NCBI GenBank assembly: GCA_965224465.1
Contig: OZ245049.1
Span: forward strand, 120,001 to 152,000
Source: Flavobacteriaceae bacterium
GTDB lineage: Bacteria > Bacteroidota > Bacteroidia > Flavobacteriales > Flavobacteriaceae
Direction: 5' to 3'
Length of the DNA stretch: 32,000 nt
Shown here: piece after piece, positions 3,021-15,339 of the stretch
Numbering within the stretch: position 1 is the first letter of the stretch
Layout: every line of letters begins with the position of its first letter
Notes under the pieces: model-generated
The model's input: only the letters and a program-made list of their open reading frames with translations
The model's database searches: none
Told to the model about the DNA's origin: nothing
Translations under genes and position numbers: made by a program

Positions 3021-4718
3021 CTACAATTCCAAATCAAATGTATTTCTAAGGAGCCCCATTTCTGGATTCATTTCTAATAATTTTTTAAATTTTTCTTGAG
3101 GAGTGTACGCAAATCGTTTTGCAACGGTTTCATTCACTTCAATTCTAAGGTCTAAACTAAAGTTATTTAATGCTTTACGGATAAAACCTAGTAATATATG
3201 ACGGTGACGCATTAATTGAGATTCCATTAAAGTATTGGGTAACTCCACAATAATATGTTGGTTATTTTCTCTAGGAACTCCCGCATTGATAATAGAAGCG
3301 ATACTTTTTTCGCCACGTTTTAGTAATAGTTGTATATATTGTTTCCAAACGAGTGCTAGCTTTTCTGTATCGAAAACATCTTTCGGTAATTTTGAAAGAT
3401 CTATATTTTCTTCTTCGTCTACTACCTCCACTTTTTTTGCGAAAACGCTTTTCATGGTCAAGCCAGTTGGGCGTTTACGTCTTCCCATTTCCTTTTTTGG
3501 TTCCTGTACTTTTGGCACTTCTTGTTCGGAAGTAGGGGAAGGGGCATTTTTGCTAGTAGGAGCGACTTTTTTTTCTGCTGTTTTATTTTCTAGCCGCTCT
3601 ATTGTGTCTTTAAAAAACGTTGCTGGAATTATGTAGTTTCTAGCTTTTTTTTTTTCTCCATCAAAATTGATAGAGGCAAGCTGCATTAAACATAATTCGA
3701 CGAGTAGCCGTTGGTTTTTACTTAATTTGTATTGCAAATCACAATTATTTGCTTTGTCTATAGCTTGTAATAGGAACGTTATACTGGTTGCTTGAGATTG
3801 CTCTAAATATCTTTTTTTTGCATTGTCACCAACTTCCAAGAGATTAATGGTAATACTGTCTTTGGCAACCAACAAGTCTCTAAAATGAGATGCCAACCCG
3901 TTGATATAATGATGCCCTTCAAACCCTTTAGATAAGATACTATTGAATTGGAGCAATATATTTGGGATGTCATTTTTTAACAATAAATCTGTCGTTGTAA
4001 AATAGACGTCATAGTCTAGGACGTTTAAATTTTCGGTAACAGCTTGTCTTGTCAATTCTTTTCCAGAAAAACTGACAACACGGTCAAAGATAGAAAGTGC
4101 ATCTCGCATTGCGCCATCTGCCTTTTGAGCAATAATATGCAAGGCATCATCTTCTGCATTTATCCCTTCTTCTTTGGCTATTTTTTTTAAATAATTTTTA
4201 GCATCTATTACTTGAATTCGTTTAAAGTCAAAGATTTGACAACGAGACAAAATCGTTGGGATAATTTTGTGTTTTTCGGTGGTAGCTAATATAAAAATGG
4301 CATGTGCAGGCGGCTCTTCTAATGTCTTTAAAAAAGCATTAAAAGCTGCTTGAGATAACATGTGTACCTCATCTATAATATAGACTTTGTATTTTCCTAC
4401 TTGTGGGGGTATTCGAACTTGTTCTATTAAATTTCGAATATCATCTACCGAGTTATTAGAAGCGGCATCCAATTCAAAAATATTGAAAGCAAAATCGTGA
4501 TCTTCTGGATTTTCAACACTTGCTTCGTTTATTTTTTTTGCTAAAATACGAGCACAGGTTGTTTTTCCAACACCTCTAGGTCCAGTAAATAACAAGGCTT
4601 GTGCAAGGTGATTGTTCTTAATAGCATTCTCTAGGGTATTGGTGATTGCTTTTTGCCCAATAACTTCACTAAAAACTTGAGGACGGTATTTACGCGCCGA
4701 TACTATAAATTGCTCCAT
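3021..4718 (-). CDS. dnaX: DNA polymerase III subunit gamma/tau
   Basis: 565-aa ORF with the AAA+ clamp-loader motifs: Walker A GPRGVGKTT, Walker B IIDEVHML, sensor TTEKHKIIPTILSRCQ, and the typical N-terminus ARKYRPQVFSEVIGQ. Confidence 0.95.
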   Translation of the reverse strand: MEQFIVSARKYRPQVFSEVIGQKAITNTLENAIKNNHLAQALLFTGPRGVGKTTCARILAKKINEASVENPEDHDFAFNIFELDAASNNSVDDIRNLIEQVRIPPQVGKYKVYIIDEVHMLSQAAFNAFLKTLEEPPAHAIFILATTEKHKIIPTILSRCQIFDFKRIQVIDAKNYLKKIAKEEGINAEDDALHIIAQKADGAMRDALSIFDRVVSFSGKELTRQAVTENLNVLDYDVYFTTTDLLLKNDIPNILLQFNSILSKGFEGHHYINGLASHFRDLLVAKDSITINLLEVGDNAKKRYLEQSQATSITFLLQAIDKANNCDLQYKLSKNQRLLVELCLMQLASINFDGEKKKARNYIIPATFFKDTIERLENKTAEKKVAPTSKNAPSPTSEQEVPKVQEPKKEMGRRKRPTGLTMKSVFAKKVEVVDEEENIDLSKLPKDVFDTEKLALVWKQYIQLLLKRGEKSIASIINAGVPRENNQHIIVELPNTLMESQLMRHRHILLGFIRKALNNFSLDLRIEVNETVAKRFAYTPQEKFKKLLEMNPEMGLLRNTFDLEL

Positions 4719-4992
4719 TAAAAACTGTTTTAGTTTACAAAAATATCAAAAGTGATGTGATTTCTACTATAATTATCTTCTTTATTTATTTTAATGATAT
4801 GATTTTTGCGTTTGGGTGGCTTATTATTGTGAAGGATTCATTTGAACATACGGTTAGAAGGACTTGTTATAATGATAGTTAAAAATCTTCTTTCGGAAGT
4901 GTAAACTCGTACCCTTATGCTGAGGCTGTTGAATTTTAGATAGATTTTTTTTAGGAACTAGAAGAAAGCAAGCTCTATTTATAGGTTTATCT

Positions 4993-5043
4993 ACTCAAAT
5001 AAAAACCCGCTTAAGAGGTCAAAAGACGACTAGAAGCGGGTTT
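4993..5043 (-). terminator. Rho-independent terminator of the sulfatase gene
   Basis: 10-bp GC-containing stem AAACCCGCTT (5003..5012) / AAGCGGGTTT (5034..5043). On the minus strand it is followed by TTTTTATTTG. It lies 44 nt downstream of the sulfatase stop. Confidence 0.55.
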
Positions 5044-5086
5044 ATACTCGATCAATCAGGGGTATAACGTGTGTTTTTGTTATGGA

Positions 5087-6625
5087 TTAATGTTTTTTGG
5101 CTTTAATTAGCTTAATTTCTTCTAACATTTTAGCAACTAACTCAGGAGATGTTTTTGCTAAGTTTTTAGTTTGTTTTCTGTCTAGGCGTAGATTATACAA
5201 TTGCATTTCCAAAGATCGTCCAGTTTCTATATTGACAAATTTATTGGTCATTTTAGATCCTTTATGAGGTGGGATTAAGACGTAGTCTCCAGATCTAAAA
5301 GAGGTTATTTTTCCTTGTCCAAGAATTAGTTGTGCTCTTCCTGTATCAGATTTACCGAGCAGTGCATCTAAAATGTTCTCACTGTCAGAGCTGTTGATTT
5401 TTTGCCCTGTCAAGGCAGCAAAAGAGGCTAAGAAGTCCATTTGACACACTAAGGCATCAGAAGTAGTTCCGGCTTTTATTTTTGCGGGCCATTTTATCAT
5501 AAAAGGAATATGTGTACCTGCATCAAACAAGCTGTATTTACCTCCTCTAAGACCACCTGTAGGGGTGTGCTTTCCTATTTTAATTACTGCATCATCCTTG
5601 TATCCATCATCTAAAACAGGGCCATTATCACTTGAAAATATAACAATAGTGTTTTCTGTTAATTTTAGACGGTCTAATTCGTCGAGTACTTGTCCTACTT
5701 CCCAGTCGGCTTCAAGGATCACATCTCCTCTTGGTCCTAAACCAGATTTTCCTGCAAAGCGTTCGTTAGGAACTCTTGGAACATGGGGTTGGTGTAAACT
5801 ATAAAATAAAAAGAAAGGGGTTTCTTTATTTATATTTATGAATTTTAAGGTTTCTTTTAAAAAATCATCTCCCATATTTTCATCCGTAAAAAGAGCTGAT
5901 TTTCCACCTTTCATAAATCCAATTCTAGAAATTCCATTGTTAATGCTCATATCATGACCATGACTAGGGAAAAGTTTTAATAATTCAGGATTGTCTTTAC
6001 CTGTAGGTTCTCCTTCAAAATTTTTCTTGTAGCTCACTGCTATTGGATCTGAAGGGTCCAAGCCGTCTATATGGTGATTTTTAACGTATACAGAAGGAAC
6101 TCTGTCGTTTGTTGATGCCATAATATATGAATAGTCAAACCCTATTTCTCGGGGGCCAGGGGTAATTTTACCATTCCAATCTAAGTTTTTATCTCCCAGT
6201 CCAAGGTGCCATTTTCCAACAACTCCAGTAGTATATCCAGCTTTTTGCAACATAGAAGGAAGTGTTTGTTTGCTTGTATCAAAAAGTAAACTGGCATTTC
6301 CGGGTAAAATTTGAGCGCGCTTGCTTCTAAAAGGGTAAATCCCTGATAACATAGAAAATCTACTCGGAGTACATGTAGGGGAAGTGGCATATCCATTTGT
6401 AAATCGGATTCCTTGTTCCCCAATTCTGTCCATATTTACTGTTTTTAATTCGGTAGCCCCATAACTACTAACATCTCCAAAGCCTAAATCATCAGCATAA
6501 ATAATAATAATGTTAGGCTTCGTTATTTTTTGTGCGGTTTTTTCTTGTGCTTTTTTTACCTCTGGTTTACAAGCAAAAGCAAACAAGGCAATAAGTAGAA
6601 CCGTACCTATTTGTGTGGTCTTCAT
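5087..6625 (-). CDS. Arylsulfatase-family sulfatase, lipoprotein
   Basis: 512-aa ORF with the formylglycine motif CTPSRFSMLSG, the metal-binding IIYADDLGFGD, and the later GKWHLG motif. The N-terminal signal peptide ends in a lipobox-like FAC. Confidence 0.9.
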   Translation of the reverse strand: MKTTQIGTVLLIALFAFACKPEVKKAQEKTAQKITKPNIIIIYADDLGFGDVSSYGATELKTVNMDRIGEQGIRFTNGYATSPTCTPSRFSMLSGIYPFRSKRAQILPGNASLLFDTSKQTLPSMLQKAGYTTGVVGKWHLGLGDKNLDWNGKITPGPREIGFDYSYIMASTNDRVPSVYVKNHHIDGLDPSDPIAVSYKKNFEGEPTGKDNPELLKLFPSHGHDMSINNGISRIGFMKGGKSALFTDENMGDDFLKETLKFININKETPFFLFYSLHQPHVPRVPNERFAGKSGLGPRGDVILEADWEVGQVLDELDRLKLTENTIVIFSSDNGPVLDDGYKDDAVIKIGKHTPTGGLRGGKYSLFDAGTHIPFMIKWPAKIKAGTTSDALVCQMDFLASFAALTGQKINSSDSENILDALLGKSDTGRAQLILGQGKITSFRSGDYVLIPPHKGSKMTNKFVNIETGRSLEMQLYNLRLDRKQTKNLAKTSPELVAKMLEEIKLIKAKKH

Positions 6626-7003
6626 ATAATTTAAGTTAAAAAAATTAGATATGAGTAAAGGTATAAATTACGATTCAGATAAACGTAGTTTATACAGTTA
6701 AAAAATGAATTATTTTTAGAAGGTATGTTTTTTTTGGGATTTGCTATCTATTTTGTGTGCTAAGAATTATACAAATTACAATTCAAAATAGCCGATAGAA
6801 TAATACTGTTTTTTAATGGAGATTTAGATTTGTACCCACACAAATCTTGGTAGAACCAATGTTTTCTTTAGGGATCCTATCAAAACCGAAAATTCTCCTC
6901 TTAAGATCTCTATTTCTTGCTATAAATTCGGTTTTAAAAGGTTTTCCAGTAGTAATTGGCTGTAAATATCTAGTTGAAGCAGTCTACTCAATTAGCTGTA
7001 GTG

Positions 7004-7579
7004 CTACCATTTTACAGGTATTGTTATTCTTTCTCCAAATTTATCATTGTCTAAAAATTGTATAGAAATACTATCATTTTCAGTTAGTTTTTTAAATAAT
7101 TTGCTGTGTTTTTGTTTAAACTCACTTACCGTACCAATATGTAAAGTGTCTTTGTTTTCTCTTAACATTTTTTTTATATAAGGATTAAAGTAACTTCTAG
7201 AATATTTTACTGTGTCAACAAAATGTTTTGTATAGATTAAAAATTGTTTGGAAGATTTTGCATTAATAGGTTTTTTTCTTGAAATACTTTGCTTAATCAG
7301 CTTATTGTTTTTGACTAAATACATTTTCATTGGATTTCCTTTTAACTTGTTTCCATAGATATATTTATAATTTAAAAATGTTATTTTTTTTGAAAAAAAG
7401 TTTGTTATTTCTGTTTGAATAGGTATACTTATAACTGAAATGGTTTTCATTTTTTTACTATACCAAAGTGTAATTTCTTTTTTCGATTCAAATTGTTTTA
7501 TTTGAATTTCTTGTTTTATTGTATTACACGACAATACCAAAAAGAGAAATATTATTTGTAAAAAAAGTATTTTCCTCAT
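7004..7579 (-). CDS. Hypothetical lipoprotein
   Basis: 191-aa ORF whose N-terminus MRKILFLQIIFLFLVLSC has a signal peptide and lipobox Cys. I recognise no domain. Confidence 0.6.
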   Translation of the reverse strand: MRKILFLQIIFLFLVLSCNTIKQEIQIKQFESKKEITLWYSKKMKTISVISIPIQTEITNFFSKKITFLNYKYIYGNKLKGNPMKMYLVKNNKLIKQSISRKKPINAKSSKQFLIYTKHFVDTVKYSRSYFNPYIKKMLRENKDTLHIGTVSEFKQKHSKLFKKLTENDSISIQFLDNDKFGERITIPVKW

Positions 7580-7655
7580 AATTATTCGTTTATAAATAGA
7601 GTTTCAATAATTTCAACAGGGACACATAATCTTAGTTATTAGCAACCAACCATTG

Positions 7656-8339
7656 TTAAAACCCGCTTTTAATTCTATATTTATCTAATAATTCCCCTGT
7701 AACTCCATCAATTAGATAACGTACGGTTCCCTTTCTATTTCTTTTATCTTCATGTTTTTCGTTCCCTTTTAAAAAGCCAATAAACCAAATGGGTTTTTTA
7801 TTAACAGAACCTTGGTTTAAATTATTATGTACCGCGTAAAACTCCGTAACGTGATACTTTTCAATGTCTTTTTTGGCAATTCTCTTCACTATTTCTATGG
7901 CTTCTGCCCAACATATTTTATAGCCTTTCTCGTAATCTATTACTTTCGTTATTTTTCCTTGTTCATTGTAATGAGTTTCTTTGAAGATAGGTTTTGTGCC
8001 GTTGATGTAAACAAAACTTACTCTTTTAATTGTTCTGTTTTTTCTATATAAAATCCATTTATCAATGCCTAATTGTTTGCTTGTTTGGTAATTTGCAATA
8101 CTTCCACTAGATAAAACAGAAAATAGATTTTTATAATTCTCATTGTCTGATATGACAATATCCCCGTTTTCGTCTTTTGATTGTTTTAAAATATTTGGAT
8201 TAAGGACTAATTCTTCTTTATTTATTTTAAAAATAGGTTCGTTGTAATGACAAATAGTATCATTTACAACGTACTCTTTAGGTACAGAGGAACAATTAGT
8301 AAAAAAAACACTTAACAATAAAATATGTAAATATTTCAT
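7656..8339 (-). CDS. Hypothetical lipoprotein
   Basis: 227-aa ORF whose N-terminus MKYLHILLLSVFFTNC has a signal peptide and lipobox Cys. I recognise no domain. Confidence 0.6.
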   Translation of the reverse strand: MKYLHILLLSVFFTNCSSVPKEYVVNDTICHYNEPIFKINKEELVLNPNILKQSKDENGDIVISDNENYKNLFSVLSSGSIANYQTSKQLGIDKWILYRKNRTIKRVSFVYINGTKPIFKETHYNEQGKITKVIDYEKGYKICWAEAIEIVKRIAKKDIEKYHVTEFYAVHNNLNQGSVNKKPIWFIGFLKGNEKHEDKRNRKGTVRYLIDGVTGELLDKYRIKSGF

Positions 8340-8415
8340 ATTATTTTAATTTAGAATATTGTTGTAATTTTTCCCACTGCCATTTGTGTGCACGAATCTT
8401 AGTTGCTAGGAAACG

Positions 8416-9273
8416 TTAGTGTATATCCAATTGTTCTTTAAATTCTTTCGTTAGATAAGGTTTTAATTCGTCAAAAGAGTAAAACAAGTCAAAGGAAGGC
8501 TCTAATGATTTAAAAGGTTGAGCATAACCTAAAGAATAAATAAACAGTAAACCATCAATGTTATTTTTTGATGTTAAAATAAAAAAGTTTAAATCATTTA
8601 AAGAAAAGCCGTTGTAATACATTTTAATGTTATTTACTGCGTCTAAATAACTTTCGGAATGTTTTTCTTTATAATAGCGCAAGTCATCTGTTATTATTTT
8701 TTGTATTATGGAATCATTCTTTTTTATCAGAAATTTTTTTTTATCAAGGTTTATAATGTCATCAATTGTTAATAATTTGATCGTTTTTAAATTTATATTA
8801 ACTGGATAGATAGATTGTTGATAGTTCGCGAAAAATGATTCTCTATAACATTCAATACTAACAAATTCTTTTTTATTGTACAATGTATTGAAATATACAT
8901 TTATTTCTCCAAATCCATAATACGAAGGAGAGCAATTTGCTCTAATTTTTTCGAACATTAATTTTACTGCATCTTCTGTAGTAGTTTTTAGAGAGTCATT
9001 TTCTAAAAGCTCAAAAAGCTCAGTATTATCTTGCGTTTGCTGATATATTAAAGTGTTTAGGGTTTTTTGAGTATTTTTATTATCTAAATTTAATTTTGGT
9101 AAGGAATATGTGATTTTAAAAACATCCCTTCCTTCTTTACAAACAACAGCGTCTTTTATTGCTGTAATAAGATTTTTTTGTTTAGAACCAATACTGTTTT
9201 TTATTTGACTTCTACAAGATAAATTTGTAATAATTAAAAAAAAACAAAGGATGTAATTACGTAAATTTTTCAT
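8416..9273 (-). CDS. Hypothetical lipoprotein (possibly DUF4163/DUF3298-like)
   Basis: 285-aa ORF with N-terminus MKNLRNYILCFFLIITNLSC. The domain guess rests only on a loose recalled resemblance and is not verified. Confidence 0.6.
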   Translation of the reverse strand: MKNLRNYILCFFLIITNLSCRSQIKNSIGSKQKNLITAIKDAVVCKEGRDVFKITYSLPKLNLDNKNTQKTLNTLIYQQTQDNTELFELLENDSLKTTTEDAVKLMFEKIRANCSPSYYGFGEINVYFNTLYNKKEFVSIECYRESFFANYQQSIYPVNINLKTIKLLTIDDIINLDKKKFLIKKNDSIIQKIITDDLRYYKEKHSESYLDAVNNIKMYYNGFSLNDLNFFILTSKNNIDGLLFIYSLGYAQPFKSLEPSFDLFYSFDELKPYLTKEFKEQLDIH

Positions 9274-9723
9274 TTTTTATTTTCTTTTTTGATTTTGAAT
9301 CAGTACCGGTTTTGAATTGTAATGAATTTAGTTTTAAGTTAGGTGTAATTTCAAAAAGGATTGTGTTTATGCCTTTTGGTTTTGTTTTAATAGCTTCTTG
9401 TTTGCGTAATTCCTTTAATAAATTCTCAGCTTTTGGGTCTTTTAAATTAACCTGTTTTTTAGTAGAACTATCTTTTTTAAAATTGTCTTTAGATATTTCT
9501 AATAAAATATTTTCTACTTCTTTTTTTTGTTCTTTTGTTCCGTTTTTATGAGTTTCTTTATAATGTTTGTAAACTTTAAACGCCTTATCTTCTTTAGATT
9601 TAAGAGTATTATCTCTTCTAGTTTCTAAACCATTATAACCGCCATTTATTGTATATGATGTATATTGAATATTATCTACATCGGCATAATCAACAGTATA
9701 TTTAGATTTATAAGGGTTTGATC
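9257..9723 (-). pseudogene. Start-less ~155-codon open frame (gene remnant or frameshifted gene) abutting IS66
   Basis: Manual minus-strand translation gives SNPYKSKYTVDYADVDNIQYTSYTINGGYNGLETRRDNTLKSKEDKAFKVYKHYKETHKNGTKEQKKEVENILLEISKDNFKKDSSTKKQVNLKDPKAENLLKELRKQEAIKTKPKGINTILFEITPNLKLNSLQFKTGTDSKSKKKIKNEKFT*. There is no in-frame ATG, GTG or TTG. An in-frame TGA sits exactly at the IS junction. The nearest ATGs (9687, 9681) are out of frame and hit TAG at 9678..9676. The stop at 9259..9257 overlaps the start of the next lipoprotein gene (9273). Confidence 0.4.
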
Positions 9724-9802
9724 GTAAGCGTACGGAGAACTACATCTTGTAAGAAGTTAAAAATAATCTAATTTTTGCATCTAAACAAAAACGAAAATAT
9801 AA

Positions 9803-10144
9803 ATGTTAGGATTAGGTACAGAACACACGTATTATTATCACTTATCTGCAGTTGATATGCGAAAAGGATTTAATGGATTAAGTGGATTAGTTAGTGAGCA
9901 CATGGAACAAGAGCGAGATAGAAATAGTGTTTATGCATTTATCAATAAGCAAAAAAATAAACTAAAACTTCTTCATTGGCGACCTGGAGGATTTGTACTG
10001 TATTATAAACGATTGGAACGAGGTATTTTTGAGCTTCCAAAATACGACATTGAAGATGGATTAGTAGTTTTGAGTTATACCCAAATGGTTATGGTTTTAG
10101 ACGGAATTAGTATTATAAATACTCAGAAAACGAACGTTATTTAG
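9803..10144 (+). CDS. tnpB: IS66 Orf2-like protein TnpB
   Basis: 113-aa ORF inside the IS. The sequence DMRKGFNGLSGLV...LKLLHWRPGGFVLYYKRLERGIFELP matches the recalled IS66 Orf2 family pattern. Confidence 0.9.
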   Translation: MLGLGTEHTYYYHLSAVDMRKGFNGLSGLVSEHMEQERDRNSVYAFINKQKNKLKLLHWRPGGFVLYYKRLERGIFELPKYDIEDGLVVLSYTQMVMVLDGISIINTQKTNVI

Positions 10145-10198
10145 AGGCTAAATAATTCAATAAAACTGTAGGTTTTACCTGCTATTTAGTCTTGTTTT

Positions 10199-11701
10199 TT
10201 GTATATTTATAGTGTGGAAAACAATACAATAGACATACAAAAAGAGCTGGTAATTTTAAAGATTGAACTTGAAAAAACAGCTCAAGAACTAGCTGAAATT
10301 AAGCAGCAATACGAGCAGCTTAAAAGAATGGTTTTCGGGTCTAAAAGCGAACGTTTTATCCCTGTTGACACAAATCAATTGTCGCTTTTCGGAAAAATAA
10401 TAGCTGAGAAAGAAGAGGCATACAAAAAACATATTGTAATCTACGAAAGAAAACAAAAGAAGAAAGGAAAGAAAAAACCTGTTCGCTCTTCTATACCTGC
10501 GCATTTTCCGCGAGTAGAAGAGATTATAGAGCCTAAGCACATAGAAGAAGGAGCTGTAAAAATAGGAGAAGAAGTTACAGAACTTTTAGAAATAACGCCT
10601 CTTTCCGTTTTTGTAAGACGAATTGTAAGACCTAAATATGCACTTCCGGAAGAAAAAGGCGTTGTTATAGCAGAATTACCAAGCTTACCGATACCTAAAG
10701 GAAATGCATCAGCAAGTTTATTGGCCTTTATACTTATTTCAAAATTTGTAGACCATTTACCACTTTACAGATTAATTCAAATTTTTAAACGACAAGATTT
10801 AAAAGTAAGTAAATCAACAATTGGAGGATGGGTATCTAAAAGTTCGGAGCTTATCGCTCCTTTATACGATACATTTAAGGCTCAGTTTTTAGAAAATGCC
10901 AATTATATTCAAGCAGACGAATCTCCTATAAAGGTTTTAGATAAAGACAAGAAAAAATCAACACACAGAGGGTATATGTGGGTGTATCGAAATCCTGTTA
11001 AAAATTTAGTTCTTTTTGAATACAATAAAGGGAGAGGAAAAGTTGTTCCAGAAGAGTTTTTTAAAGATTTCAATGGGACACTACAGTCCGATGGGTATGC
11101 TGCATACCAAAACTTAACAACAAAAGGAGAAATTACTCTTTTAGGTTGCATGGCTCATGCTAGGCGGTATTTTGAGAAGGCGCTGGATAATGATCCTAAA
11201 AGAGCGGATGTTGTTTTGTTGGAAATTCAAAAGCTATACAAGATAGAACGTAAAATAAAAGAACAAGAATTAACTATTGAGCAAACTAAAGCATATAGAG
11301 AAAAACATGCATCACCTGTTTTAGACGGAATAGAAATTTATCTTACAAAAGAGCGAAAAAACGTACTGCCTAAAAGTGCCATAGGAAAAGCAATTGCTTA
11401 TACTCTTAAAATATGGCAAAACCTAAAACTATACATCGATGATGGCAGGTTTGAAATAGACAACAATAATATAGAAAATGCCATAAGACCTTTAGCTATT
11501 GGCAGAAAAAATTATCTCTTTGCTGGCAGTCATGAGTCCGCACAAAACATAGCTCTATTTTATAGCTTTTTTGCTACTTGCAAAAAGAATAACGTAAACC
11601 CACATACGTGGCTATGTGATGTCCTTAATAGATTACCAGAACATAAGGCTAATAAACTTTCGGAGTTACTGCCTCAAAATTGGAAGCCTGTTGATAAATA
11701 A
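10199..11701 (+). CDS. tnpC: IS66-family transposase TnpC
   Basis: 500-aa ORF with an N-terminal coiled coil followed by MVFGSKSERF. It has a DDE-region pattern (IQADESPIKVL, GYMWVYR, LQSDGYAAY, GCMAHARRYF) and the C-terminal IDNNNIENAIRPLAIGRKNYLFAGS. The track start is TTG; the true start could be GTG at 10213. Confidence 0.9.
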   Translation: MYIYSVENNTIDIQKELVILKIELEKTAQELAEIKQQYEQLKRMVFGSKSERFIPVDTNQLSLFGKIIAEKEEAYKKHIVIYERKQKKKGKKKPVRSSIPAHFPRVEEIIEPKHIEEGAVKIGEEVTELLEITPLSVFVRRIVRPKYALPEEKGVVIAELPSLPIPKGNASASLLAFILISKFVDHLPLYRLIQIFKRQDLKVSKSTIGGWVSKSSELIAPLYDTFKAQFLENANYIQADESPIKVLDKDKKKSTHRGYMWVYRNPVKNLVLFEYNKGRGKVVPEEFFKDFNGTLQSDGYAAYQNLTTKGEITLLGCMAHARRYFEKALDNDPKRADVVLLEIQKLYKIERKIKEQELTIEQTKAYREKHASPVLDGIEIYLTKERKNVLPKSAIGKAIAYTLKIWQNLKLYIDDGRFEIDNNNIENAIRPLAIGRKNYLFAGSHESAQNIALFYSFFATCKKNNVNPHTWLCDVLNRLPEHKANKLSELLPQNWKPVDK

Positions 11702-11966
11702 TCAAGGGTGTACTTTACCGTACGCTTACGTTTGATCATAGTTTATTGCCAAACGTTTTTTATTCGCGTACAACCGCTCTAATTAGGTCTGAGTAATTTT
11801 TCCACAATAACCTGATAAAGACCTGAATGATATCTCATCTTGTAATATTATTCAATGCAGACTATTCAGAATAGTAATAATTCTATTATCACGAGTTTTA
11901 GTTGAAGTAGTCAATATGTTTTTCCTCTGCAGTTTTATTGAACTTTATTATATTAGGTCTCCTTTC

Positions 11967-12248
11967 TTAACTATTGATAAACTCAGGCTTCTTATAACTA
12001 GTTTCAAAGTCAGTATCTTTTATTGAACAATTTTTTAAAATAGCAGATCCAAAATGTGTTTCTTTTACAACTACATTTTCAAATGTACACTTATCCATGA
12101 AGACATTTGTTAAATTAGCGTTTTCTAATGTTACGTTTATAAATGTAACATTTGTCATTTTACAATCACTAAAGTCTATATCGTTTAGATTAGAATCTTC
12201 AATAATACAGTCATTTAAATAAGCCTTTGGAGCGTACATGTTTTCCAA
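11967..12248 (-). CDS. Pentapeptide-repeat protein, C-terminal fragment of an interrupted gene
   Basis: 93-aa ORF (TTG start in the track; first ATG at 12239) made of A(D/N)LXX-type pentads (SNLND IDFSD CKMTN VTFIN VTLEN ANLTN ...). It is in frame with the upstream ORF and separated from it only by one TAA. Confidence 0.6.
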   Translation of the reverse strand: MENMYAPKAYLNDCIIEDSNLNDIDFSDCKMTNVTFINVTLENANLTNVFMDKCTFENVVVKETHFGSAILKNCSIKDTDFETSYKKPEFINS

Positions 12249-12272
12249 AATAGAATTACGAAAAACTGATTT

Positions 12273-12638
12273 TTAAAAATTTACTTCCATCATACTACTA
12301 TCCATTAGATTAACTTTAGTAAAAATTGAACCGGATAGATTACCTCTTGTAAAAGATATCTCTTTAAGGTTGGCTCCTGTGAAATCACAATTCGTGAATT
12401 CTTGGTGAGGTAAATAACTATCGATCATCTTTACATTTTTAAAGCTTACTTTATCTAAATTTATTTCTGATGATTCAAGATCGCTAATTGGTAAACCACT
12501 GAGGTCCATATTGTCGAAACATGCTTTTTTACCTTCATTTTTATTCTTGAGCCATAACTTATGAAGTTTTATGATTTTTACAACTTGATTTTTTGTTGAA
12601 TGGAGGTTCATTTTTATTTTATGTTTGGTAACACCCAT
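12273..12638 (-). CDS. Pentapeptide-repeat protein, N-terminal fragment of an interrupted gene
   Basis: 121-aa ORF whose pentads (ANLKE ISFTR GNLSG SIFTK VNLMD ...) run up to its TAA at 12275..12273. Confidence 0.6.
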   Translation of the reverse strand: MGVTKHKIKMNLHSTKNQVVKIIKLHKLWLKNKNEGKKACFDNMDLSGLPISDLESSEINLDKVSFKNVKMIDSYLPHQEFTNCDFTGANLKEISFTRGNLSGSIFTKVNLMDSSMMEVNF

Positions 12639-12847
12639 ATATCATCAATAAACTTCCAAAACTTGACGTTATTTCCGTTATGTCTATAGATAGTTTCGGG
12701 GTATGTGTTGTTTCTTTGTTAAAAAGTATTCGATTTTTTTAAATATTCAAGCGATCCAACGATTTTTTTATTGTTAATTTCAATGGTCTTGTTGTAAAAC
12801 TCTGTGGTTTTTGGAGAAGCATGGCTTAACACCAATTACAATCCAAA

Positions 12848-12934
12848 ATGACAGCTATAAATAGTTTATTTTATGTGCTGGCGTTGTTGAAAAACAGAAC
12901 GATAGCTATGGCTATCCTTATGTTTTTCGCCTAG
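12848..12934 (+). CDS. Candidate small ORF, array copy 1 (28 aa: MTAINSLFYVLALLKNRTIAMAILMFFA)
   Basis: Manual translation of an ATG..TAG frame. It is too short for the ORF track. Support comes only from the conservation pattern across the five copies (see findings). Confidence 0.3.
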   Translation: MTAINSLFYVLALLKNRTIAMAILMFFA

Positions 12935-13009
12935 CTAGAACAAAAAATAATTCCATTTCTAAACCATCACTTGGAAATGTATTTGGTGTAACACCAATTA
13001 CAATCCAAA

Positions 13010-13096
13010 ATGACAGCTATAAATAGTTTATTTTATGTGCTGGCGTTGTTGAAAAACAGAACGATAGCTATGGCTATCCTTATGTTTTTCGCCTAG
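13010..13096 (+). CDS. Candidate small ORF, array copy 2 (identical to copy 1)
   Basis: Same ATG..TAG frame, 162 bp downstream of copy 1. Confidence 0.3.
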   Translation: MTAINSLFYVLALLKNRTIAMAILMFFA

Positions 13097-13171
13097 CTAG
13101 AACAAAAAATAATTCCATTTCTAAACCATCACTTGGAAATGTATTTGGTGTAACACCAATTACAATCCAAA

Positions 13172-13258
13172 ATGACAGCTATAAATAGTTTATTTTATGT
13201 GCTGGCGTTGTTGAAAAACAGAACGATAGCTAAGGCTATCCATCCATTTTTCGCCTAG
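13172..13258 (+). CDS. Candidate small ORF, array copy 3 (28 aa: MTAINSLFYVLALLKNRTIAKAIHPFFA)
   Basis: Same frame and length as copy 1. Only the tail differs. Confidence 0.3.
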   Translation: MTAINSLFYVLALLKNRTIAKAIHPFFA

Positions 13259-13282
13259 CTATAATACCAATTACAATCCAAA

Positions 13283-13369
13283 ATGACAGCTATAAATAGT
13301 TTATTTTATGTGCTAGCGTTGTTGAAAAACAGAACGATAGCTAAGGCTATCCATCCATTTTTCGCCTAG
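13283..13369 (+). CDS. Candidate small ORF, array copy 4 (same peptide as copy 3)
   Basis: Differs from copy 3 within the ORF only by a synonymous CTG->CTA change. Confidence 0.3.
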   Translation: MTAINSLFYVLALLKNRTIAKAIHPFFA

Positions 13370-13393
13370 CTATAATACCAATTACAATCCAAA

Positions 13394-13474
13394 ATGACAG
13401 CTATAAATAGTTTATTTTATGTGCTAGCGTTGTTGAAAAATAGAACGATAGCTATCCTTAGATTTTTCGCCTAA
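13394..13474 (+). CDS. Candidate small ORF, array copy 5 (26 aa: MTAINSLFYVLALLKNRTIAILRFFA)
   Basis: Relative to copy 1 it has a 6-nt in-frame deletion and synonymous CTA and AAT codons. The stop is kept, as TAA instead of TAG. Confidence 0.3.
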   Translation: MTAINSLFYVLALLKNRTIAILRFFA

Positions 13475-13479
13475 CTAGA

Positions 13480-13524
13480 ACAAAAAACAAATACATTTCT
13501 AAACCGTAATTTGGAAATGTATTT
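13480..13524 (-). terminator. Rho-independent terminator of the acyl-CoA ligase gene (inside array copy 5)
   Basis: Perfect 11-bp stem AAATACATTTC (13489..13499) / GAAATGTATTT (13514..13524) with a 14-nt loop. On the minus strand it is followed by GTTTTTTG. It lies 34 nt downstream of the stop at 13558. Confidence 0.6.
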
Positions 13525-13557
13525 GGTATTAAAAGGGTCTTTAGCTATAGAGTTCAA

Positions 13558-15339
13558 TTACTCTTTGTCGTATATTTTATTGTACAAAGCGATGTATTTT
13601 GCTTTTATTTCAGCTCTTTTTGGTTTCATAGTAGGAGTTAGCAATCCATTGTCAATTCCCCAAACATCAGGTGTTAATTCAAAACGTTTGATTGTTTCCC
13701 ATTTAGCGAAGCGTTTGTTTGCTTTATCTACTTCTTTTTGGATACGGGTAATTACATGTGGGTTTAAAATCAAATCTGCATTGTTATTTGATAGAGGCTC
13801 ATGATGAATCCTAGCCCATTCTCTTAAGAACTCATAATTTGGTTGGATAATGGCAGCTGCCATTTTTTCTCCTTCACCTACAACCATTACTTGCTCAATA
13901 AAACGAGATTGTTTTACACGGTTTTCTAATAAAGCAGGGACTACATATTTACCACCCGAGGTTTTGAAAATTTCTTTTTTACGTCCAGTAATGGTTAGAA
14001 ATCCATTTTCATCTATTTCTCCTTTGTCTCCTGTATGGAAATAATCATCAGTCATAACCGATGTTGTTTTTTCGGGGTCTTTATAATAACGCATCATAAT
14101 ATTAGGTCCTTTGACTAAAATTTCTCCATCATTAGCTATTTTTACCGATACATTATCTATAGGTTTACCTACAGAGCCAATTTTCATTCCTTTATTAGCA
14201 TATTCATTTACAGAAATTACTGGAGATGTTTCTGTCAATCCATAACCTTCCATAATTTGCATTCCTGCAGCTGTAAATACTCTTGCTAAACGCGGTTGTA
14301 ATGCCGCAGAACCAGAGACCATTGTGCTCATGTTTCCTCCCAGTGCATCTCTCCATTTACTAAAGATTAGTGTATCCGCAATGCGTAGTTTAAATTCGTA
14401 CCACCAACCATTTTTACCGTAAGGTTTATAGCGCAAACCAACACCAACAGCCCAAAAGAAAATTATTTTTTTAATTCCAGTAAGCTCACTTCCTTTTGTG
14501 ATAATTCCATCATATACTTTTTCTAATAATCTAGGAACAACACTCATTAAATGAGGTTTAATCTCTTTCATATTATCACCGATTTTATCAATTCCTTCTG
14601 CGAAATTAATGCTTATTCCGTTGTATTGATAGAGGTAGAGTAGCATACGTTCAAAAACGTGACATACGGGTAAGAAGCTCAGAACAATCGTTTTTCCTGT
14701 TTCTACAGGTAATTTTTTAGTACAATCAATTACATTGCTCACAATATTTTTATGAGAAAGCATCACTCCCTTAGGTCTTCCTGTAGTTCCAGAAGTATAG
14801 ATTATGGTTGCGAGATCATTTTCTGAAACCTTATTTCTAATCTCATCTACTTCTGATTGATTGCTGTTGTCTTTTCCAAGTTCTAAAATTTCTTCCCAAT
14901 TTTTACATCCCTCAACCTTATCAAAGGAGTAGATCTCTTTTAAGGTACTTGCTTTTTTCTTGGTAAGGCTTGCTTTTTCAAACAATTCACTGTCTGAAAG
15001 AAAACAATGTGTTACTTGTGCATGGTTAAATATATATTCATAATCACTTGCAGATATGGTAGGGTAAATAGGAACATTTTGAGCTCCAATTTGGAGGATT
15101 CCTACATCCATGATATTCCATTCGGTACGATTTGTACTAGAAATAACGGCTATTTTATCGTTTGGTTTTACACCGAGTCTCAATAACCCACGGCTGATGG
15201 CATTTGCTTTTTCTAAAAATTCTTCACTAGATGTAGCCACCCATTTCCCGTTGTATTTTGTAACAAAAGCTTTGGGTAGGTTATACGTTTCCTTTTGATG
15301 ATAAGCAAAATCGAAAGTACGTGTTATTTTTTGAGACAT
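13558..15339 (-). CDS. Long-chain-fatty-acid--CoA ligase (AMP-dependent synthetase)
   Basis: 593-aa ORF with the AMP-binding motif IYTSGTTGRPKGVMLSH, then EGYGLTETS, FHTGDKGEIDENGFLTITGRKKEIFKTSGGKY, and the C-terminal LTPTMKPKR. Confidence 0.9.
   Translation of the reverse strand: MSQKITRTFDFAYHQKETYNLPKAFVTKYNGKWVATSSEEFLEKANAISRGLLRLGVKPNDKIAVISSTNRTEWNIMDVGILQIGAQNVPIYPTISASDYEYIFNHAQVTHCFLSDSELFEKASLTKKKASTLKEIYSFDKVEGCKNWEEILELGKDNSNQSEVDEIRNKVSENDLATIIYTSGTTGRPKGVMLSHKNIVSNVIDCTKKLPVETGKTIVLSFLPVCHVFERMLLYLYQYNGISINFAEGIDKIGDNMKEIKPHLMSVVPRLLEKVYDGIITKGSELTGIKKIIFFWAVGVGLRYKPYGKNGWWYEFKLRIADTLIFSKWRDALGGNMSTMVSGSAALQPRLARVFTAAGMQIMEGYGLTETSPVISVNEYANKGMKIGSVGKPIDNVSVKIANDGEILVKGPNIMMRYYKDPEKTTSVMTDDYFHTGDKGEIDENGFLTITGRKKEIFKTSGGKYVVPALLENRVKQSRFIEQVMVVGEGEKMAAAIIQPNYEFLREWARIHHEPLSNNNADLILNPHVITRIQKEVDKANKRFAKWETIKRFELTPDVWGIDNGLLTPTMKPKRAEIKAKYIALYNKIYDKE

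What the first reader, a model, noticed from the sequence alone, without database searches (positions are those of the whole stretch)
12826..13530. Five-copy tandem array in which every unit carries a conserved 26-28 codon ORF overlapping a long hairpin
There are five head-to-tail units, starting at 12831, 12993, 13155, 13266 and 13377 (spacings 162, 162, 111, 111 bp). Each unit holds an ATG-initiated frame encoding MTAINSLFYVLALLKNRTIA plus a variable tail. The tails are MAILMFFA (copies 1 and 2), KAIHPFFA (copies 3 and 4) and ILRFFA (copy 5). In the first 20 codons the only differences between copies are two third-position synonymous changes, CTG->CTA and AAC->AAT. The single indel is 6 nt and therefore in frame. 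The stop is kept in every copy (TAG, or TAA in copy 5). This pattern suggests selection on a reading frame with a conserved N-terminus and a variable C-terminus. Such a peptide could be a small hydrophobic membrane or toxin-like peptide, or a leader-plus-core precursor. The same segment is also a long imperfect inverted repeat: GCTGGCG..GAAAAACA..GATAGC pairs with GCTATC..TGTTTTTC..CGCCTAGC. In copy 5 a C->T change in the 5' arm is matched by a G->A change in the 3' arm (GAAAAAT/ATTTTTC), which is what an RNA- or DNA-structure element would show. A 51-nt extension module is present in copies 1, 2 and 5. In copy 5 it forms the perfect 11-bp minus-strand terminator of the neighbouring acyl-CoA ligase gene, whereas in copies 1 and 2 it has decayed. 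The array therefore grew by duplicating a segment that includes a terminator. I do not recognise the peptide or the repeat.
Basis: seen in the sequence. Interest (0 to 1): 0.72.

Follow-up and report, generated by a model that had tools for sequence, protein, structure and literature searches.

The report
Cluster of small palindromic mobile repeats
The five-unit array is a local pile-up of a roughly 165-base hairpin-forming mobile repeat (MITE-like) that also sits as single copies at unrelated sites in related marine Flavobacteriaceae, and its 28-codon reading frame is most likely incidental, so this is an ordinary kind of element in a new family.

Summary
In detail: five head-to-tail units (162, 162, 111, 111 nt spacing), each with a 26-28 codon ATG frame over a hairpin.

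The unit is not unique to this locus. The full 162-167 nt unit (111-nt core plus 51-nt extension) occurs as single or nested copies at four unrelated intergenic or gene-end sites in related North Pond MAGs and metagenomes. The whole unit folds as one long imperfect hairpin: 60 pairs, 94% paired, 7 pairs with compensatory changes. Downstream of aceA, one relative has the element, one has a deletion remnant, and two are empty. This anatomy is MITE-like (compare ERIC, Correia, SPRITE, RPE).

The peptide reading is weak. ATG is ATA in 5 of 8 independent copies, and the tail is lost in two. The array's "variable tail" falls mainly on the hairpin loop, an internal loop and one compensated pair. One coding-like signal remains unexplained: an excess of synonymous changes (p about 0.006, 22 events).

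The terminator hairpin of copy 5 is a derived gain. Copies 1 and 2 carry the family consensus, so they have not decayed.

No transposase partner or target-site duplication was established.

Verdict: new member of a known kind, low to moderate interest.

The parts
12829..12989 (+). Unit 1: full-length element (111-nt core plus 51-nt right-end module). The ends ACACCAATTACAATCCAAA ... TTTGGAAATGTATTTGGTGT are imperfect inverted repeats.
   Evidence: Alignments A1 and A2. nhmmer match to model positions 3-167, E 2e-53. Inverted repeats I3 and I9.
12991..13151 (+). Unit 2: full-length element, identical to unit 1 apart from the first flanking base. It folds as one long hairpin.
   Evidence: Fold energy is -46.3 kcal/mol (z -6.3) on the + strand and -57.8 kcal/mol (z -8.3) on the - strand.
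13153..13261 (+). Unit 3: core only, with the right-end module missing. Its 5' part is of the unit-1/2 type, and its hairpin-tip region is of a third type.
   Evidence: nhmmer match to model positions 2-118.
13264..13372 (+). Unit 4: core only. Its 5' part is of the unit-5 type and its tip region is as in unit 3, which makes it a recombinant between unit types.
13375..13529 (+). Unit 5: full-length element with a 6-nt deletion at the hairpin tip and a modified right-end module.
   Evidence: E 5e-47.
13482..13525 (-). Intrinsic-terminator-like hairpin (12+4 pairs) followed directly by TTTTTT. It is formed by the right-end module of unit 5 and begins 32 nt downstream of the ligase stop. This is a derived, improved version of the family's weak right-end hairpin.
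   Evidence: The hairpin folds at -13.5 kcal/mol (z -2.5), against -5.6 to -8.9 kcal/mol (z about 0) for units 1 and 2 and five copies from other genomes.
12889..12928 (.). Central hairpin (the tip of the whole-element hairpin) of unit 1. Equivalent hairpins lie at 13051-13090, 13213-13252, 13324-13363 and 13435-13468.
   Evidence: Helix 3 of A6 has 16 pairs with 100% of cells paired.
12848..12934 (+). 28-codon ATG frame of unit 1. Equivalent frames lie at 13010-13096, 13172-13258, 13283-13369 and 13394-13474. Judged most likely incidental.
   Evidence: One search lists the frames. Start codon and tail are not conserved in family members elsewhere. A synonymous excess is noted.
13558..15339 (-). 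Long-chain fatty-acid-CoA ligase gene (context). The array starts 28 nt downstream of its stop codon.
   Evidence: The best homologue has 91% identity and is named long-chain fatty acid--CoA ligase, from a Flavobacteriaceae MAG.
11967..12638 (-). Two adjacent pentapeptide-repeat ORFs (121 and 93 aa) downstream of the array on the minus strand (context).

Best explanation
The array is a local cluster of a small, non-autonomous, palindromic mobile repeat, MITE-like in anatomy. It belongs to Lutibacter-related marine Flavobacteriaceae.

The element:
- One complete element is about 162-167 bp.
- Its two ends are imperfect inverted repeats (ATACCAAWWACAATCC... / ...GGAAATGTAWTTGGTAT).
- The whole sequence is self-complementary, so either strand folds into one long imperfect hairpin.

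The array:
- The window holds three complete elements (units 1, 2, 5) and two copies that lack the right-end module (units 3, 4).
- Inferred: they arose from one or two adjacent insertions, followed by unequal recombination or replication slippage between copies. Units 3 and 4 are recombinants of the unit-1/2 and unit-5 types.

The reading frame:
- The 28-codon frame is most likely a by-product of the sequence.
- Its 'conserved N-terminus' lies on stem positions.
- Its 'variable tail' falls mainly on the terminal loop, an internal loop and one compensated pair.

The terminator:
- In the orientation found here, the right-end module of unit 5 has acquired substitutions that turn a weak family hairpin into a canonical hairpin-plus-T6 terminator.
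- It sits directly behind the acyl-CoA ligase gene, which would be an exaptation.

Shown versus inferred:
- Shown: the family exists elsewhere, the whole-element hairpin is kept with compensatory changes, one orthologous site is insertion-polymorphic, the start codon and tail are not conserved, and the unit-5 hairpin is derived.
- Inferred: transposition by a transposase supplied in trans (none identified), the recombination history of the array, and actual terminator activity.
For: 1. Family members elsewhere. A 21-nt word from the core hits three loci in two related MAGs, L008 (NORP129) and L009 and L010 (NORP150). A further copy, L013, came from a peptide search. All align over the full 162-167 nt at 85-90% identity. 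They sit in unrelated contexts: after aceA, after a 1008-aa aminotransferase fusion gene, after a 274-aa gene, and inside the 3' end of a UPF0158 gene.

2. Whole-element hairpin. Fold z-scores are -6 to -8 on both strands. The element matches its own reverse complement (E 1e-16). Across six copies there are 60 pairs with 94.1% of cells paired. Seven pairs (11 cells) changed on both sides, against 0-2 in the slid controls.

3. Insertion polymorphism downstream of aceA.
   - L008 is filled: TCGATTGTAT[GGTGATACC...TTTGGTAT]AAGTTAAGTTTTCAAAACACC.
   - L014 holds a 51-nt internal-deletion derivative that keeps both ends.
   - L011 and L015 are empty, with conserved flanks.

4. A second cluster. L010 holds one full element lying within another, with the two units about 7% different. 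Clustering is therefore a family habit.

5. Against coding.
   - ATG is ATA in L008, L009, L010 copy 1, L013 and P0242.
   - In L008 an in-frame TAA directly precedes it.
   - The tails of P0242 and P0243 diverge after KNK/KNR.
   - An exhaustive phmmer search of 1.84 billion representatives found only two ORF calls. One (P0241) is a UPF0158 host gene that reads into a copy of the element. The other (P0242) is a 46-aa ORF call over another copy.

6. The array's variable region. Columns 72-73 are an internal loop, columns 83-86 are the terminal loop, and column 71 is the compensated pair. The remaining difference (column 75 in units 3 and 4) breaks a pair.

7. The window is a variable region. 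In the closest relatives the ligase is followed 49 nt later by dnaX. Here about 8.8 kb lies between them, and the array is at its edge.

8. Published MITE biology. The review PMC10969869 describes ORF-bearing elements (ERIC, BOX, RPE), terminator-like elements (SPRITE), and clusters in which elements insert into one another.
Against: - No target-site duplication could be defined. Flanks are compatible with TA or TAT but ambiguous, and the aceA site carries an unexplained extra GGTG/GGTA at the left junction.
- No autonomous insertion sequence with matching ends was found. The only one in the window is an IS66-family element with unrelated ends, CGTAAGCGTACGG.
- Known copy number is low. There are about 5 independent DNA loci plus two ORF-called copies, and none in about 85 kb of other related sequence.
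- The proposed frame shows an excess of synonymous differences: 11 of 22 against 2 of 21 in each other frame, p = 0.006. In the central hairpin, third codon positions pair with third codon positions. Neither is predicted by a purely non-coding element.
- Compensatory changes in a DNA palindrome can arise by template switching without any selection.
- Array copy number rests on a single assembly.
Confidence: 0.7

Rival explanations
1. Each unit is a real small-protein gene on the + strand. The product would be a 26-28 aa amphipathic or hydrophobic peptide, for example a type-I-toxin-like membrane peptide. The long hairpin would be its mRNA structure. Copies elsewhere with ATA in place of ATG would be inactivated pseudogenes, as is common for chromosomal type I toxin loci.
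For: - The frame is open with the stop at the same place in all 9 DNA copies except the interrupted one.
- Synonymous changes are in excess: 11 of 22 events against 2 in each other frame, permutation p = 0.006.
- ATG is present in all 5 window units, in L010 copy 2 and in P0243.
- In the central hairpin, third positions pair with third positions (position sum 123). Structure and coding could therefore co-vary silently (derived from the sequence).
- The upstream context AAAATG is A-rich, as expected for Bacteroidota, which do not rely on Shine-Dalgarno sequences (own knowledge).
- Tandem multi-copy arrangement is typical of Ibs/Sib and Ldr type I loci (own knowledge).
Against: - The start codon is ATA in 5 of 8 independent copies, and L008 has an in-frame TAA directly before it.
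- The C-terminal third is replaced in P0242 and P0243.
- No called small protein of this family exists among 1.84 billion representatives, apart from read-through artefacts.
- The hydrophobic stretch is broken by KNR in the middle, so there is no 18-20 residue membrane span.
- An element with only about 20 nt ahead of the ATG has no room for its own promoter, and no antisense RNA promoter is evident.
- The start region is buried in the stem (pairs 21-29 with 139-147).
- The synonymous signal rests on about 22 events.
Confidence: 0.1
2. The unit is a structured non-coding RNA (a small RNA or cis-acting 3'/5' UTR element) that functions on the window's minus strand. The array would be a multi-copy RNA locus between the ligase gene and the pentapeptide-repeat genes. 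Its spread to other sites would be secondary.
For: - The minus-strand fold is stronger: -57.8 against -46.3 kcal/mol, and -51.7 against -45.4 kcal/mol.
- One-sided changes give G.U on the minus strand at 11 pair positions, against A.C at 3.
- The ATG/ATA polymorphism is G-C/G.U on the minus strand (pair 25/143).
- In the array, three of the four differences between the unit 1/2 and unit 3/4 arms keep or improve minus-strand pairing (sequence).
- In this orientation the element begins with a hairpin plus T-run.
Against: - The G.U asymmetry is only p = 0.057, and the structure was derived on that strand.
- In L008, L009, L010 and L013 the flanking genes run in the opposite sense. Read-through transcripts there would carry the other strand.
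- No Rfam family matches.
- No convincing promoter was found.
- Presence/absence and deletion derivatives at the aceA site suggest a selfish repeat rather than a conserved RNA gene.
Confidence: 0.1
3. The array is a purely local tandem duplication or an assembly artefact with no counterpart elsewhere. The ORF and the hairpin would be accidents of the duplicated segment.
For: Copy number rests on one assembly and could not be checked. Units 1 and 2 are identical, and units 3 and 4 nearly so.
Against: Full-length homologues occur at four other loci in other genomes and metagenomes. The hairpin is kept by compensatory changes. Units 1/2 and unit 5 differ by about 16% in the right-end module, so they are not products of one recent duplication.
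Confidence: 0.03

Closest known systems
ERIC / IRU elements of Enterobacteriaceae, and ERIC-like elements of Yersinia
   Same: - Intergenic repeat of about 127-170 bp that is an imperfect palindrome over its whole length.
- Often located just 3' of genes, inside transcription units.
- Size variants arise by internal deletion.
- Some copies carry ORFs.
- The RNA hairpin can alter mRNA fate.
(Review PMC10969869, plus own knowledge.)
   Different: - No sequence similarity, and a different phylum.
- Far lower known copy number here.
- Tandem or nested clusters are not a hallmark of ERIC.
- No effect on RNA has been tested here.
Correia repeat-enclosed elements (Neisseria)
   Same: - Non-autonomous element of about 100-155 bp with terminal inverted repeats.
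- Intergenic and co-transcribed, with hairpin RNA.
- Can supply regulatory signals.
(PMC10969869.)
   Different: - Correia elements have defined 26-bp terminal repeats, a TA duplication and an IHF site, and are cut by RNase III. None of these is established here.
- They occur in hundreds of copies per genome.
SPRITE, RUP and BOX repeats of Streptococcus pneumoniae
   Same: - SPRITE is a mobile rho-independent-terminator-like element.
[quoted passage not shown] This matches the window array and the nested L010 cluster.
- It also matches the terminator module of unit 5.
   Different: Different sequence and host. In the present family, the consensus right-end hairpin is a weak terminator. Only unit 5 has the strong form.
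Rickettsia palindromic elements (RPE)
   Same: Palindromic repeat of about 150 bp with an open frame, so that host genes can read into it. Here the UPF0158 gene P0241 ends in 34 element-encoded residues (PMC10969869).
   Different: RPEs are open across the whole element and sit in-frame inside genes. This element has a stop after 28 codons and is mainly intergenic.
Type I toxin-antitoxin loci in tandem arrays (Ibs/Sib, Ldr/Rdl)
   Same: Tandem multi-copy units that each have a short hydrophobic ORF within a highly structured RNA (own knowledge).
   Different: - No antisense RNA gene or promoters were found.
- The unit is only 111-162 nt.
- Start codon and tail are not conserved in the family.
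- The unit has terminal inverted repeats and an insertion polymorphism.

Membership tests
MITE (miniature inverted-repeat transposable element) | Small size (tens to a few hundred bp) with no transposase gene | tested here: met
   The element is 162-167 bp. Its only ORF has 26-28 codons.
MITE (miniature inverted-repeat transposable element) | Terminal inverted repeats | tested here: met
   The ends ATACCAATTACAATCCAAA and TTTGGAAATGTATTTGGTAT pair (I3/I4; helix 1 of A6 has 24 pairs with 91.7% of cells paired). The complementarity extends over the whole element.
MITE (miniature inverted-repeat transposable element) | Target-site duplication flanking each copy | tested here: inconclusive
   Flanks of 6 copies show no common direct repeat. 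TA (as A-TA-CC...GG-TA-T) cannot be told apart from the terminal repeat itself. The aceA filled/empty comparison leaves an extra GGTG/GGTA at the left junction.
MITE (miniature inverted-repeat transposable element) | Multiple dispersed copies at non-orthologous sites | tested here: met
   There are five loci in four contexts outside the window (L008/L014, L009, L010, L013). P0242 and P0243 lie on a 5.24-Mb contig. Copy number per genome could not be counted and appears low.
MITE (miniature inverted-repeat transposable element) | Presence/absence polymorphism at an orthologous site | tested here: met
   Downstream of aceA, L008 is filled, L014 holds a deletion derivative, and L011 and L015 are empty with conserved flanks.
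MITE (miniature inverted-repeat transposable element) | A cognate autonomous insertion sequence with the same ends | tested here: not met
   The only insertion sequence in the window (IS66 family, 9723-11730) has unrelated ends, CGTAAGCGTACGG. No genome-wide search was possible because the scans were exhausted.
Small protein / type I toxin gene | Start codon, frame and stop conserved across homologues | tested here: not met
   ATG is ATA in 5 of 8 independent copies. The tail diverges in P0242 and P0243. Frame and stop are kept in the closer DNA copies.
Small protein / type I toxin gene | Purifying selection on the peptide (excess of synonymous change) | tested here: inconclusive
   Of 22 events, 11 are synonymous, against 2 in each other frame; permutation p = 0.006. 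The sample is small, and two of the non-synonymous changes form a compensatory stem pair.
Small protein / type I toxin gene | Own promoter plus an overlapping antisense RNA gene | tested here: not met
   Sigma-70-like sites are no more frequent than in shuffles (8 against 8.6). None lies upstream of the ATG on the + strand. Bacteroidota promoter motifs were inspected only by eye.
RiPP precursor (leader plus variable core) array | Conserved leader, variable core, and neighbouring maturation enzymes | tested here: not met
   The neighbours are a ligase, pentapeptide-repeat ORFs and an IS66 element, with no modifying enzymes. Copies elsewhere sit in unrelated contexts.
Any Rfam RNA family | Match at or above the family gathering score | tested here: not met
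   There are 0 hits at gathering thresholds in the window. Only sub-threshold generic hairpin hits (plant and animal microRNA models) appear at E<=10.
Intrinsic (rho-independent) terminator (unit 5 right end, minus strand) | Stable stem-loop followed immediately by a T-run, downstream of a gene on the same strand | tested here: met
   A 12+4-pair stem (-13.5 kcal/mol, z -2.5) is followed by TTTTTT, starting 32 nt after the ligase stop. Termination activity was not tested. The stem is AT-rich and falls outside the scanner's rule of at least 3 G-C pairs.
REP / REPIN (RAYT-mobilised) | A 20-40 bp G+C-rich palindrome with a conserved GTAG/CGTC head and an associated RAYT gene | tested here: not met
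   The element is 165 bp and AT-rich, with no GTAG/CGTC head. No Y1 transposase was seen in the window.

The most novel reading that the evidence does not exclude
The element could be a mobile, dual-coded module. On this reading, a 28-codon frame for a cationic amphipathic peptide is kept under purifying selection while lying inside an 80-bp hairpin.

In the central stem, third codon positions pair with third codon positions, so RNA structure and peptide could co-evolve. Copies with ATA would be dead copies. The five-copy array with intact ATGs would be an amplified active locus.

This could, for instance, be a selfish type-I-toxin-like gene in Bacteroidota, where I know of few if any such systems (own knowledge).
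Probability: 0.08. Interest if true: 0.65.

Novelty: new member of a known kind. Interest (0 to 1): 0.3.

Why it matters
- Annotation: the finding adds a previously undescribed palindromic repeat family for Lutibacter-related marine and subseafloor Flavobacteriaceae. Such repeats break MAG assemblies, create spurious small ORFs and gene-tail fusions (P0241, P0243), and mark recombination-prone regions.
- Exaptation: unit 5 is a compact example. Two or three substitutions turn a weak repeat hairpin into a canonical terminator for a housekeeping gene whose original operon partner (dnaX) has been displaced by 8.8 kb.
- Caution: the case shows that a 'conserved N-terminus, variable C-terminus' across tandem copies can simply mirror stem against loop positions of a hairpin.
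- Open point: only the unexplained synonymous-site excess would make the element more than ordinary.

Tried and rejected
Searches that found nothing:
- Exact-protein look-ups for the window's ligase and pentapeptide protein are not on record. The source genome could not be fetched. P0122, P0242 and P0243, on a 5,241,564-bp contig that may be the source or a close relative, are likewise not indexed.
- A scan of genome contigs with a codon-degenerate pattern of the first 12 codons gave 0 hits. No genome keeps that peptide sequence exactly.
- blastn of the array against plasmids and phages gave no match. Two viral-contig scans gave 0 hits.
- Rfam gave nothing real at gathering or relaxed thresholds.
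- A full-text search for the core sequence strings found 0 papers.
- PADLOC and NCBIfam on neighbouring unknown ORFs returned no hits for the three unknown ORFs and only weak, sub-threshold hits for the pentapeptide-repeat ORFs.

Searches with limited yield:
- The metagenome scan gave one hit, L007, with only about 25-30 nt of similarity in a GC-rich unrelated contig. It has no hairpin partner and is probably chance.
A concatenated query found only P0241 and P0243.

Ideas considered and dropped:
- The IS66 element as the mobilising partner. Its ends are unrelated.
- An attenuator leader peptide or riboswitch array. There is no amino-acid run, no conserved downstream gene, and copies elsewhere are 3' of genes.
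- att-site accretion by an integrative element. Units abut each other without intervening DNA.
- A CRISPR-like array. There are no spacers.
Full report
**1.

- Tandem Repeats Finder reports two overlapping arrays: 12827-13261 (period 162, 2.7 copies, 98% matches) and 13151-13454 (period 111, 2.7 copies, 98%).
- A 26-nt word from the core occurs exactly five times, at 12854, 13016, 13178, 13289 and 13400. None is expected by chance.
- The alignment of the five units shows three things:
  - a nearly invariant first 79 nt;
  - a cluster of differences at unit positions 80-100;
  - a 51-nt extension present only in units 1, 2 and 5.
- The central inverted repeat is present in each unit.

**2. Setting**

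- The organism is a Lutibacter-related member of the Flavobacteriaceae. The ligase at 13558-15339 (-) is at most 91% identical to proteins of Flavobacteriaceae MAGs and about 72-76% identical to Lutibacter proteins.
- In the nearest relatives (L001-L003) the ligase is followed 49 nt later by dnaX. In the window dnaX is at 3021-4718.
- About 8.8 kb therefore lies between the two genes here. It contains:
  - a sulfatase gene;
  - three ORFs without family matches;
  - an IS66-family element;
  - two pentapeptide-repeat ORFs;
  - the array, at the ligase-proximal edge.
- Homology to the relatives resumes about 50 nt upstream of dnaX.
- Other relatives (L004, L005/L006) have different DNA after the ligase. 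None has the repeat there.

**3. The unit is a member of a dispersed family**

- A codon-degenerate search for the first 12 codons found nothing in 185,579 species genomes.
- A 21-nt word from the conserved hairpin arm found three loci in two North Pond subseafloor MAGs.
- An exhaustive protein search with the element-encoded peptide found a fourth locus.
- In each case a complete 162-167 nt element (core plus extension) aligns end to end with the window units.

The contexts are unrelated:

| Locus | Position of the element |
|---|---|
| L008 | Between the aceA stop and its terminator |
| L009 | Between a 1008-aa fusion gene and the next gene |
| L010 | After the terminator of a 274-aa gene |
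| L013 | At the 3' end of a UPF0158 gene, whose called product P0241 ends in 34 element-encoded residues |

- Two further ORF calls, P0242 and P0243, contain the element's left half. Both lie on a 5.24-Mb contig that I could not fetch.

**4. Anatomy**

- The two ends of the full element are imperfect inverted repeats. The complementarity runs through the whole element.
- The element matches its own reverse complement (E 1e-16).
- It folds into a single long hairpin on either strand:
  - unit 2: -46.3 kcal/mol (z -6.3) on the + strand and -57.8 kcal/mol (z -8.3) on the - strand;
  - L009: -45.4 and -51.7 kcal/mol.
- On six full copies the consensus structure has 60 pairs, and 94.1% of cells are paired.
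- Seven pairs (11 cells) changed on both sides, against 0-2 when partners are slid by 1-3 columns.
It occurs as C-G, U-A and, in units 3 and 4 and L010 copy 2, as the intermediate U.G (minus strand) or C.A (plus strand).

**5. Mobility**

- Downstream of aceA the four genomes differ:
  - the NORP129 genome carries the full element (L008);
  - a second genome (L014, isocitrate lyase 93% identical) carries a 51-nt internal-deletion derivative that keeps both ends;
  - two further genomes (L011 and L015, 94%) have an empty site with conserved flanks, TCGA(A)TTGTAT | (T)TTAAGTTTT....
- This is a presence/absence polymorphism at an orthologous site, with subsequent decay.
- L010 holds a second cluster. 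A truncated unit is followed 97 nt later by a full unit and then by a spare right-hand part. The units differ by about 7%.
- The simplest reading is one element inserted into the T-run of another.
- I could not define a target-site duplication. I also found no insertion sequence with matching ends. The IS66-family element in the window (9723-11730) ends in CGTAAGCGTACGG.

**6. How the window array is built**

- Units 1 and 2 are identical full elements.
- Unit 5 is a full element whose right-end module differs from theirs at about 8 of 51 positions.
- Units 3 and 4 lack the right-end module and share a third version of the tip region.
- The 5' part of unit 3 is of the unit-1/2 type (AACACC, CTGGCG). 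That of unit 4 is of the unit-5 type (AATACC, CTAGCG).
- This mosaic points to one or two neighbouring insertions followed by unequal crossing-over or slippage between copies. That history is inferred, not shown.
- The 6-nt deletion in unit 5 removes one of two GCTAT repeats spaced 6 nt apart at the hairpin tip. Its in-frame length needs no selection.

**7. The reading frame**

Against a functional peptide:
- ATG is ATA in L008, L009, L010 copy 1, L013 and P0242. It is ATG only in the window, L010 copy 2 and P0243.
- In L008 an in-frame TAA directly precedes the ATA.
- The residues after KNR/KNK are unrelated in P0242 and P0243.
- Within the array, three of the four differing positions between the unit 1/2 and unit 3/4 arms are free to vary in the structure. 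They are the internal loop (A6 columns 72-73) and the compensated pair (column 71). The terminal loop (columns 83-86) also varies. The fourth difference (column 75 in units 3 and 4) breaks a pair.
- No called small protein of this kind exists among 1.84 billion representative proteins.
- An ORF of 28 codons in a 111-nt AT-rich unit is not unusual. Its five-fold repetition is not independent evidence.

In favour:
- Outside the 21 nt fixed by my search pattern, 11 of 22 substitution events are synonymous in this frame, against 2 in each of the other two frames. A permutation that keeps the base changes gives p = 0.006.
- In the central stem, third positions pair with third positions.

I regard this as an unexplained residue, not as proof. 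The sample is small, and two of the non-synonymous changes are a compensatory stem pair. Review literature also notes that MITEs such as ERIC, BOX and RPE often carry ORFs of unknown significance (PMC10969869).

**8. Which strand matters**

- One-sided changes produce G.U on the window's minus strand at 11 pair positions and A.C at 3 (p = 0.057). The minus-strand folds are stronger.
- This hints at an RNA or single-stranded role for the strand antisense to the proposed ORF.
- However, in four of five loci elsewhere the flanking genes would transcribe the other strand. I give this little weight.

**9. The terminator**

- On the minus strand every full element begins with a right-end hairpin and a T-run.
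- In units 1 and 2 and in five copies from other genomes, the local hairpin is weak (-5.6 to -8.9 kcal/mol, z about 0) and is separated from the T-run.
- Only in unit 5 do substitutions (AATTCC to AAATAC) extend the stem to 12+4 pairs that abut TTTTTT (-13.5 kcal/mol, z -2.5). It starts 32 nt after the ligase stop.
- Units 1 and 2 carry the family consensus, so unit 5 gained a terminator rather than units 1 and 2 losing one.
- In the nearest relatives the ligase has no terminator and runs into dnaX. The repeat has therefore plausibly been co-opted after the 8.8-kb insertion. Activity was not tested.

**10. Comparison with known systems**

- The anatomy is that of prokaryotic MITE-like palindromic repeats:
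  - about 165 bp;
  - inverted ends with whole-length self-complementarity;
  - intergenic or 3'-of-gene sites;
  - insertion polymorphism and deletion derivatives;
  - nested or bunched copies;
  - a terminator-like module;
  - an incidental ORF, with host genes reading into it.
- The closest analogues are ERIC, Correia, RUP/BOX/SPRITE and RPE.
- There is no sequence similarity to any Rfam family, phage or plasmid. The core strings appear in no paper in the library.
- MITEs are reported to be abundant in Bacteroidota and Flavobacterium genomes (PMC11602168).
- Membership of the MITE class is met on size, inverted ends, dispersal and insertion polymorphism. It is inconclusive on target duplication and not met on a cognate transposase.

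**11. Verdict**

This is a real feature, a new family of a known kind of element, amplified locally. Interest is low to moderate. It would rise only if the synonymous-site signal survives a large copy set.

Noticed in passing
window 4719-13557: About 8.8 kb lies between the ligase gene and dnaX, which are adjacent (49 nt apart) in the closest relatives L001-L003. Other relatives have different DNA at this spot, so it is a variable region. Homology to the relatives resumes about 50 nt upstream of dnaX.
   Followed up: partly
window 9723-11730: IS66-family element with TnpB (9803-10144) and the DDE transposase (10199-11701). It is bounded by 22-nt inverted repeats, CGTAAGCGTACGGAGAACTACA / TGTACTTTACCGTACGCTTACG. 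No IS66 orf1 (TnpA) was recognised.
   Followed up: partly
window 11967-12638 (-): Two adjacent pentapeptide-repeat ORFs of 121 and 93 aa add up to the length of a Qnr/MfpA-type protein (about 215 aa). This may be one gene split by a stop or a frameshift.
   Followed up: no
window 6744-6810: A partial look-alike of the element's left end, ATACAAATTACAATTCAAAAT, has 2 mismatches to the 21-nt end (0.01 expected by chance). It is preceded by TATTTTGTGTGCTA and lies about 150 nt upstream of the sulfatase gene. The nhmmer E-value is only 0.1. It could be a decayed solo end or chance.
   Followed up: partly
L007 7952-7976: A 24-nt exact match to the conserved hairpin arm (GTTGTTGAAAAACAGAACGATAGC) lies in a GC-rich, unrelated metagenome contig. 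There is no partner arm and no further similarity. Roughly 0.02-0.05 such hits are expected by chance, so it remains unexplained.
   Followed up: partly
L014 11293-11345: A 51-nt miniature form of the element sits at the aceA site. The left end, ATACCAAAAACAAT, is joined to the right-end hairpin, and the junction lies at a shared AAT. This shows that internal deletion can generate still smaller derivatives that keep both ends.
   Followed up: yes
L010 3882-4209: An independent cluster consists of a truncated unit, a full unit 97 nt later and a spare right-hand part. It is best explained as one element inserted into the T-run of another.
   Followed up: partly
L013 367-759 (P0241) and P0243: Gene callers produce chimeric proteins that read into the element. 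P0241 is a UPF0158 protein with a 34-residue element-encoded tail. P0243 is a 159-aa ORF whose residues 36-59 are the element's left half, preceded by an N-terminal stretch that to the eye resembles a helix-turn-helix (Pfam gave no match).
   Followed up: partly
L004 9800-9850 (shown reverse-complemented): In a relative with an 87% identical ligase, the DNA just after the ligase stop reads AATACCAAATTATAATTGTATTTAAAAGAGG. This resembles the element's end and the window's junction, TGTATTTGGTATTAAAAGGG. It may be a remnant of an old insertion at the same site, but nhmmer did not score it.
   Followed up: no
window 13261-13289 and 13372-13400 (-): At the two 111-nt junctions the minus strand carries CTGTCA-17 nt-TATTAT with a TG two bases upstream (extended -10-like). 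It points into the next unit's hairpin. Such sites are no more frequent than in shuffles, and Bacteroidota use a different promoter consensus.
   Followed up: no
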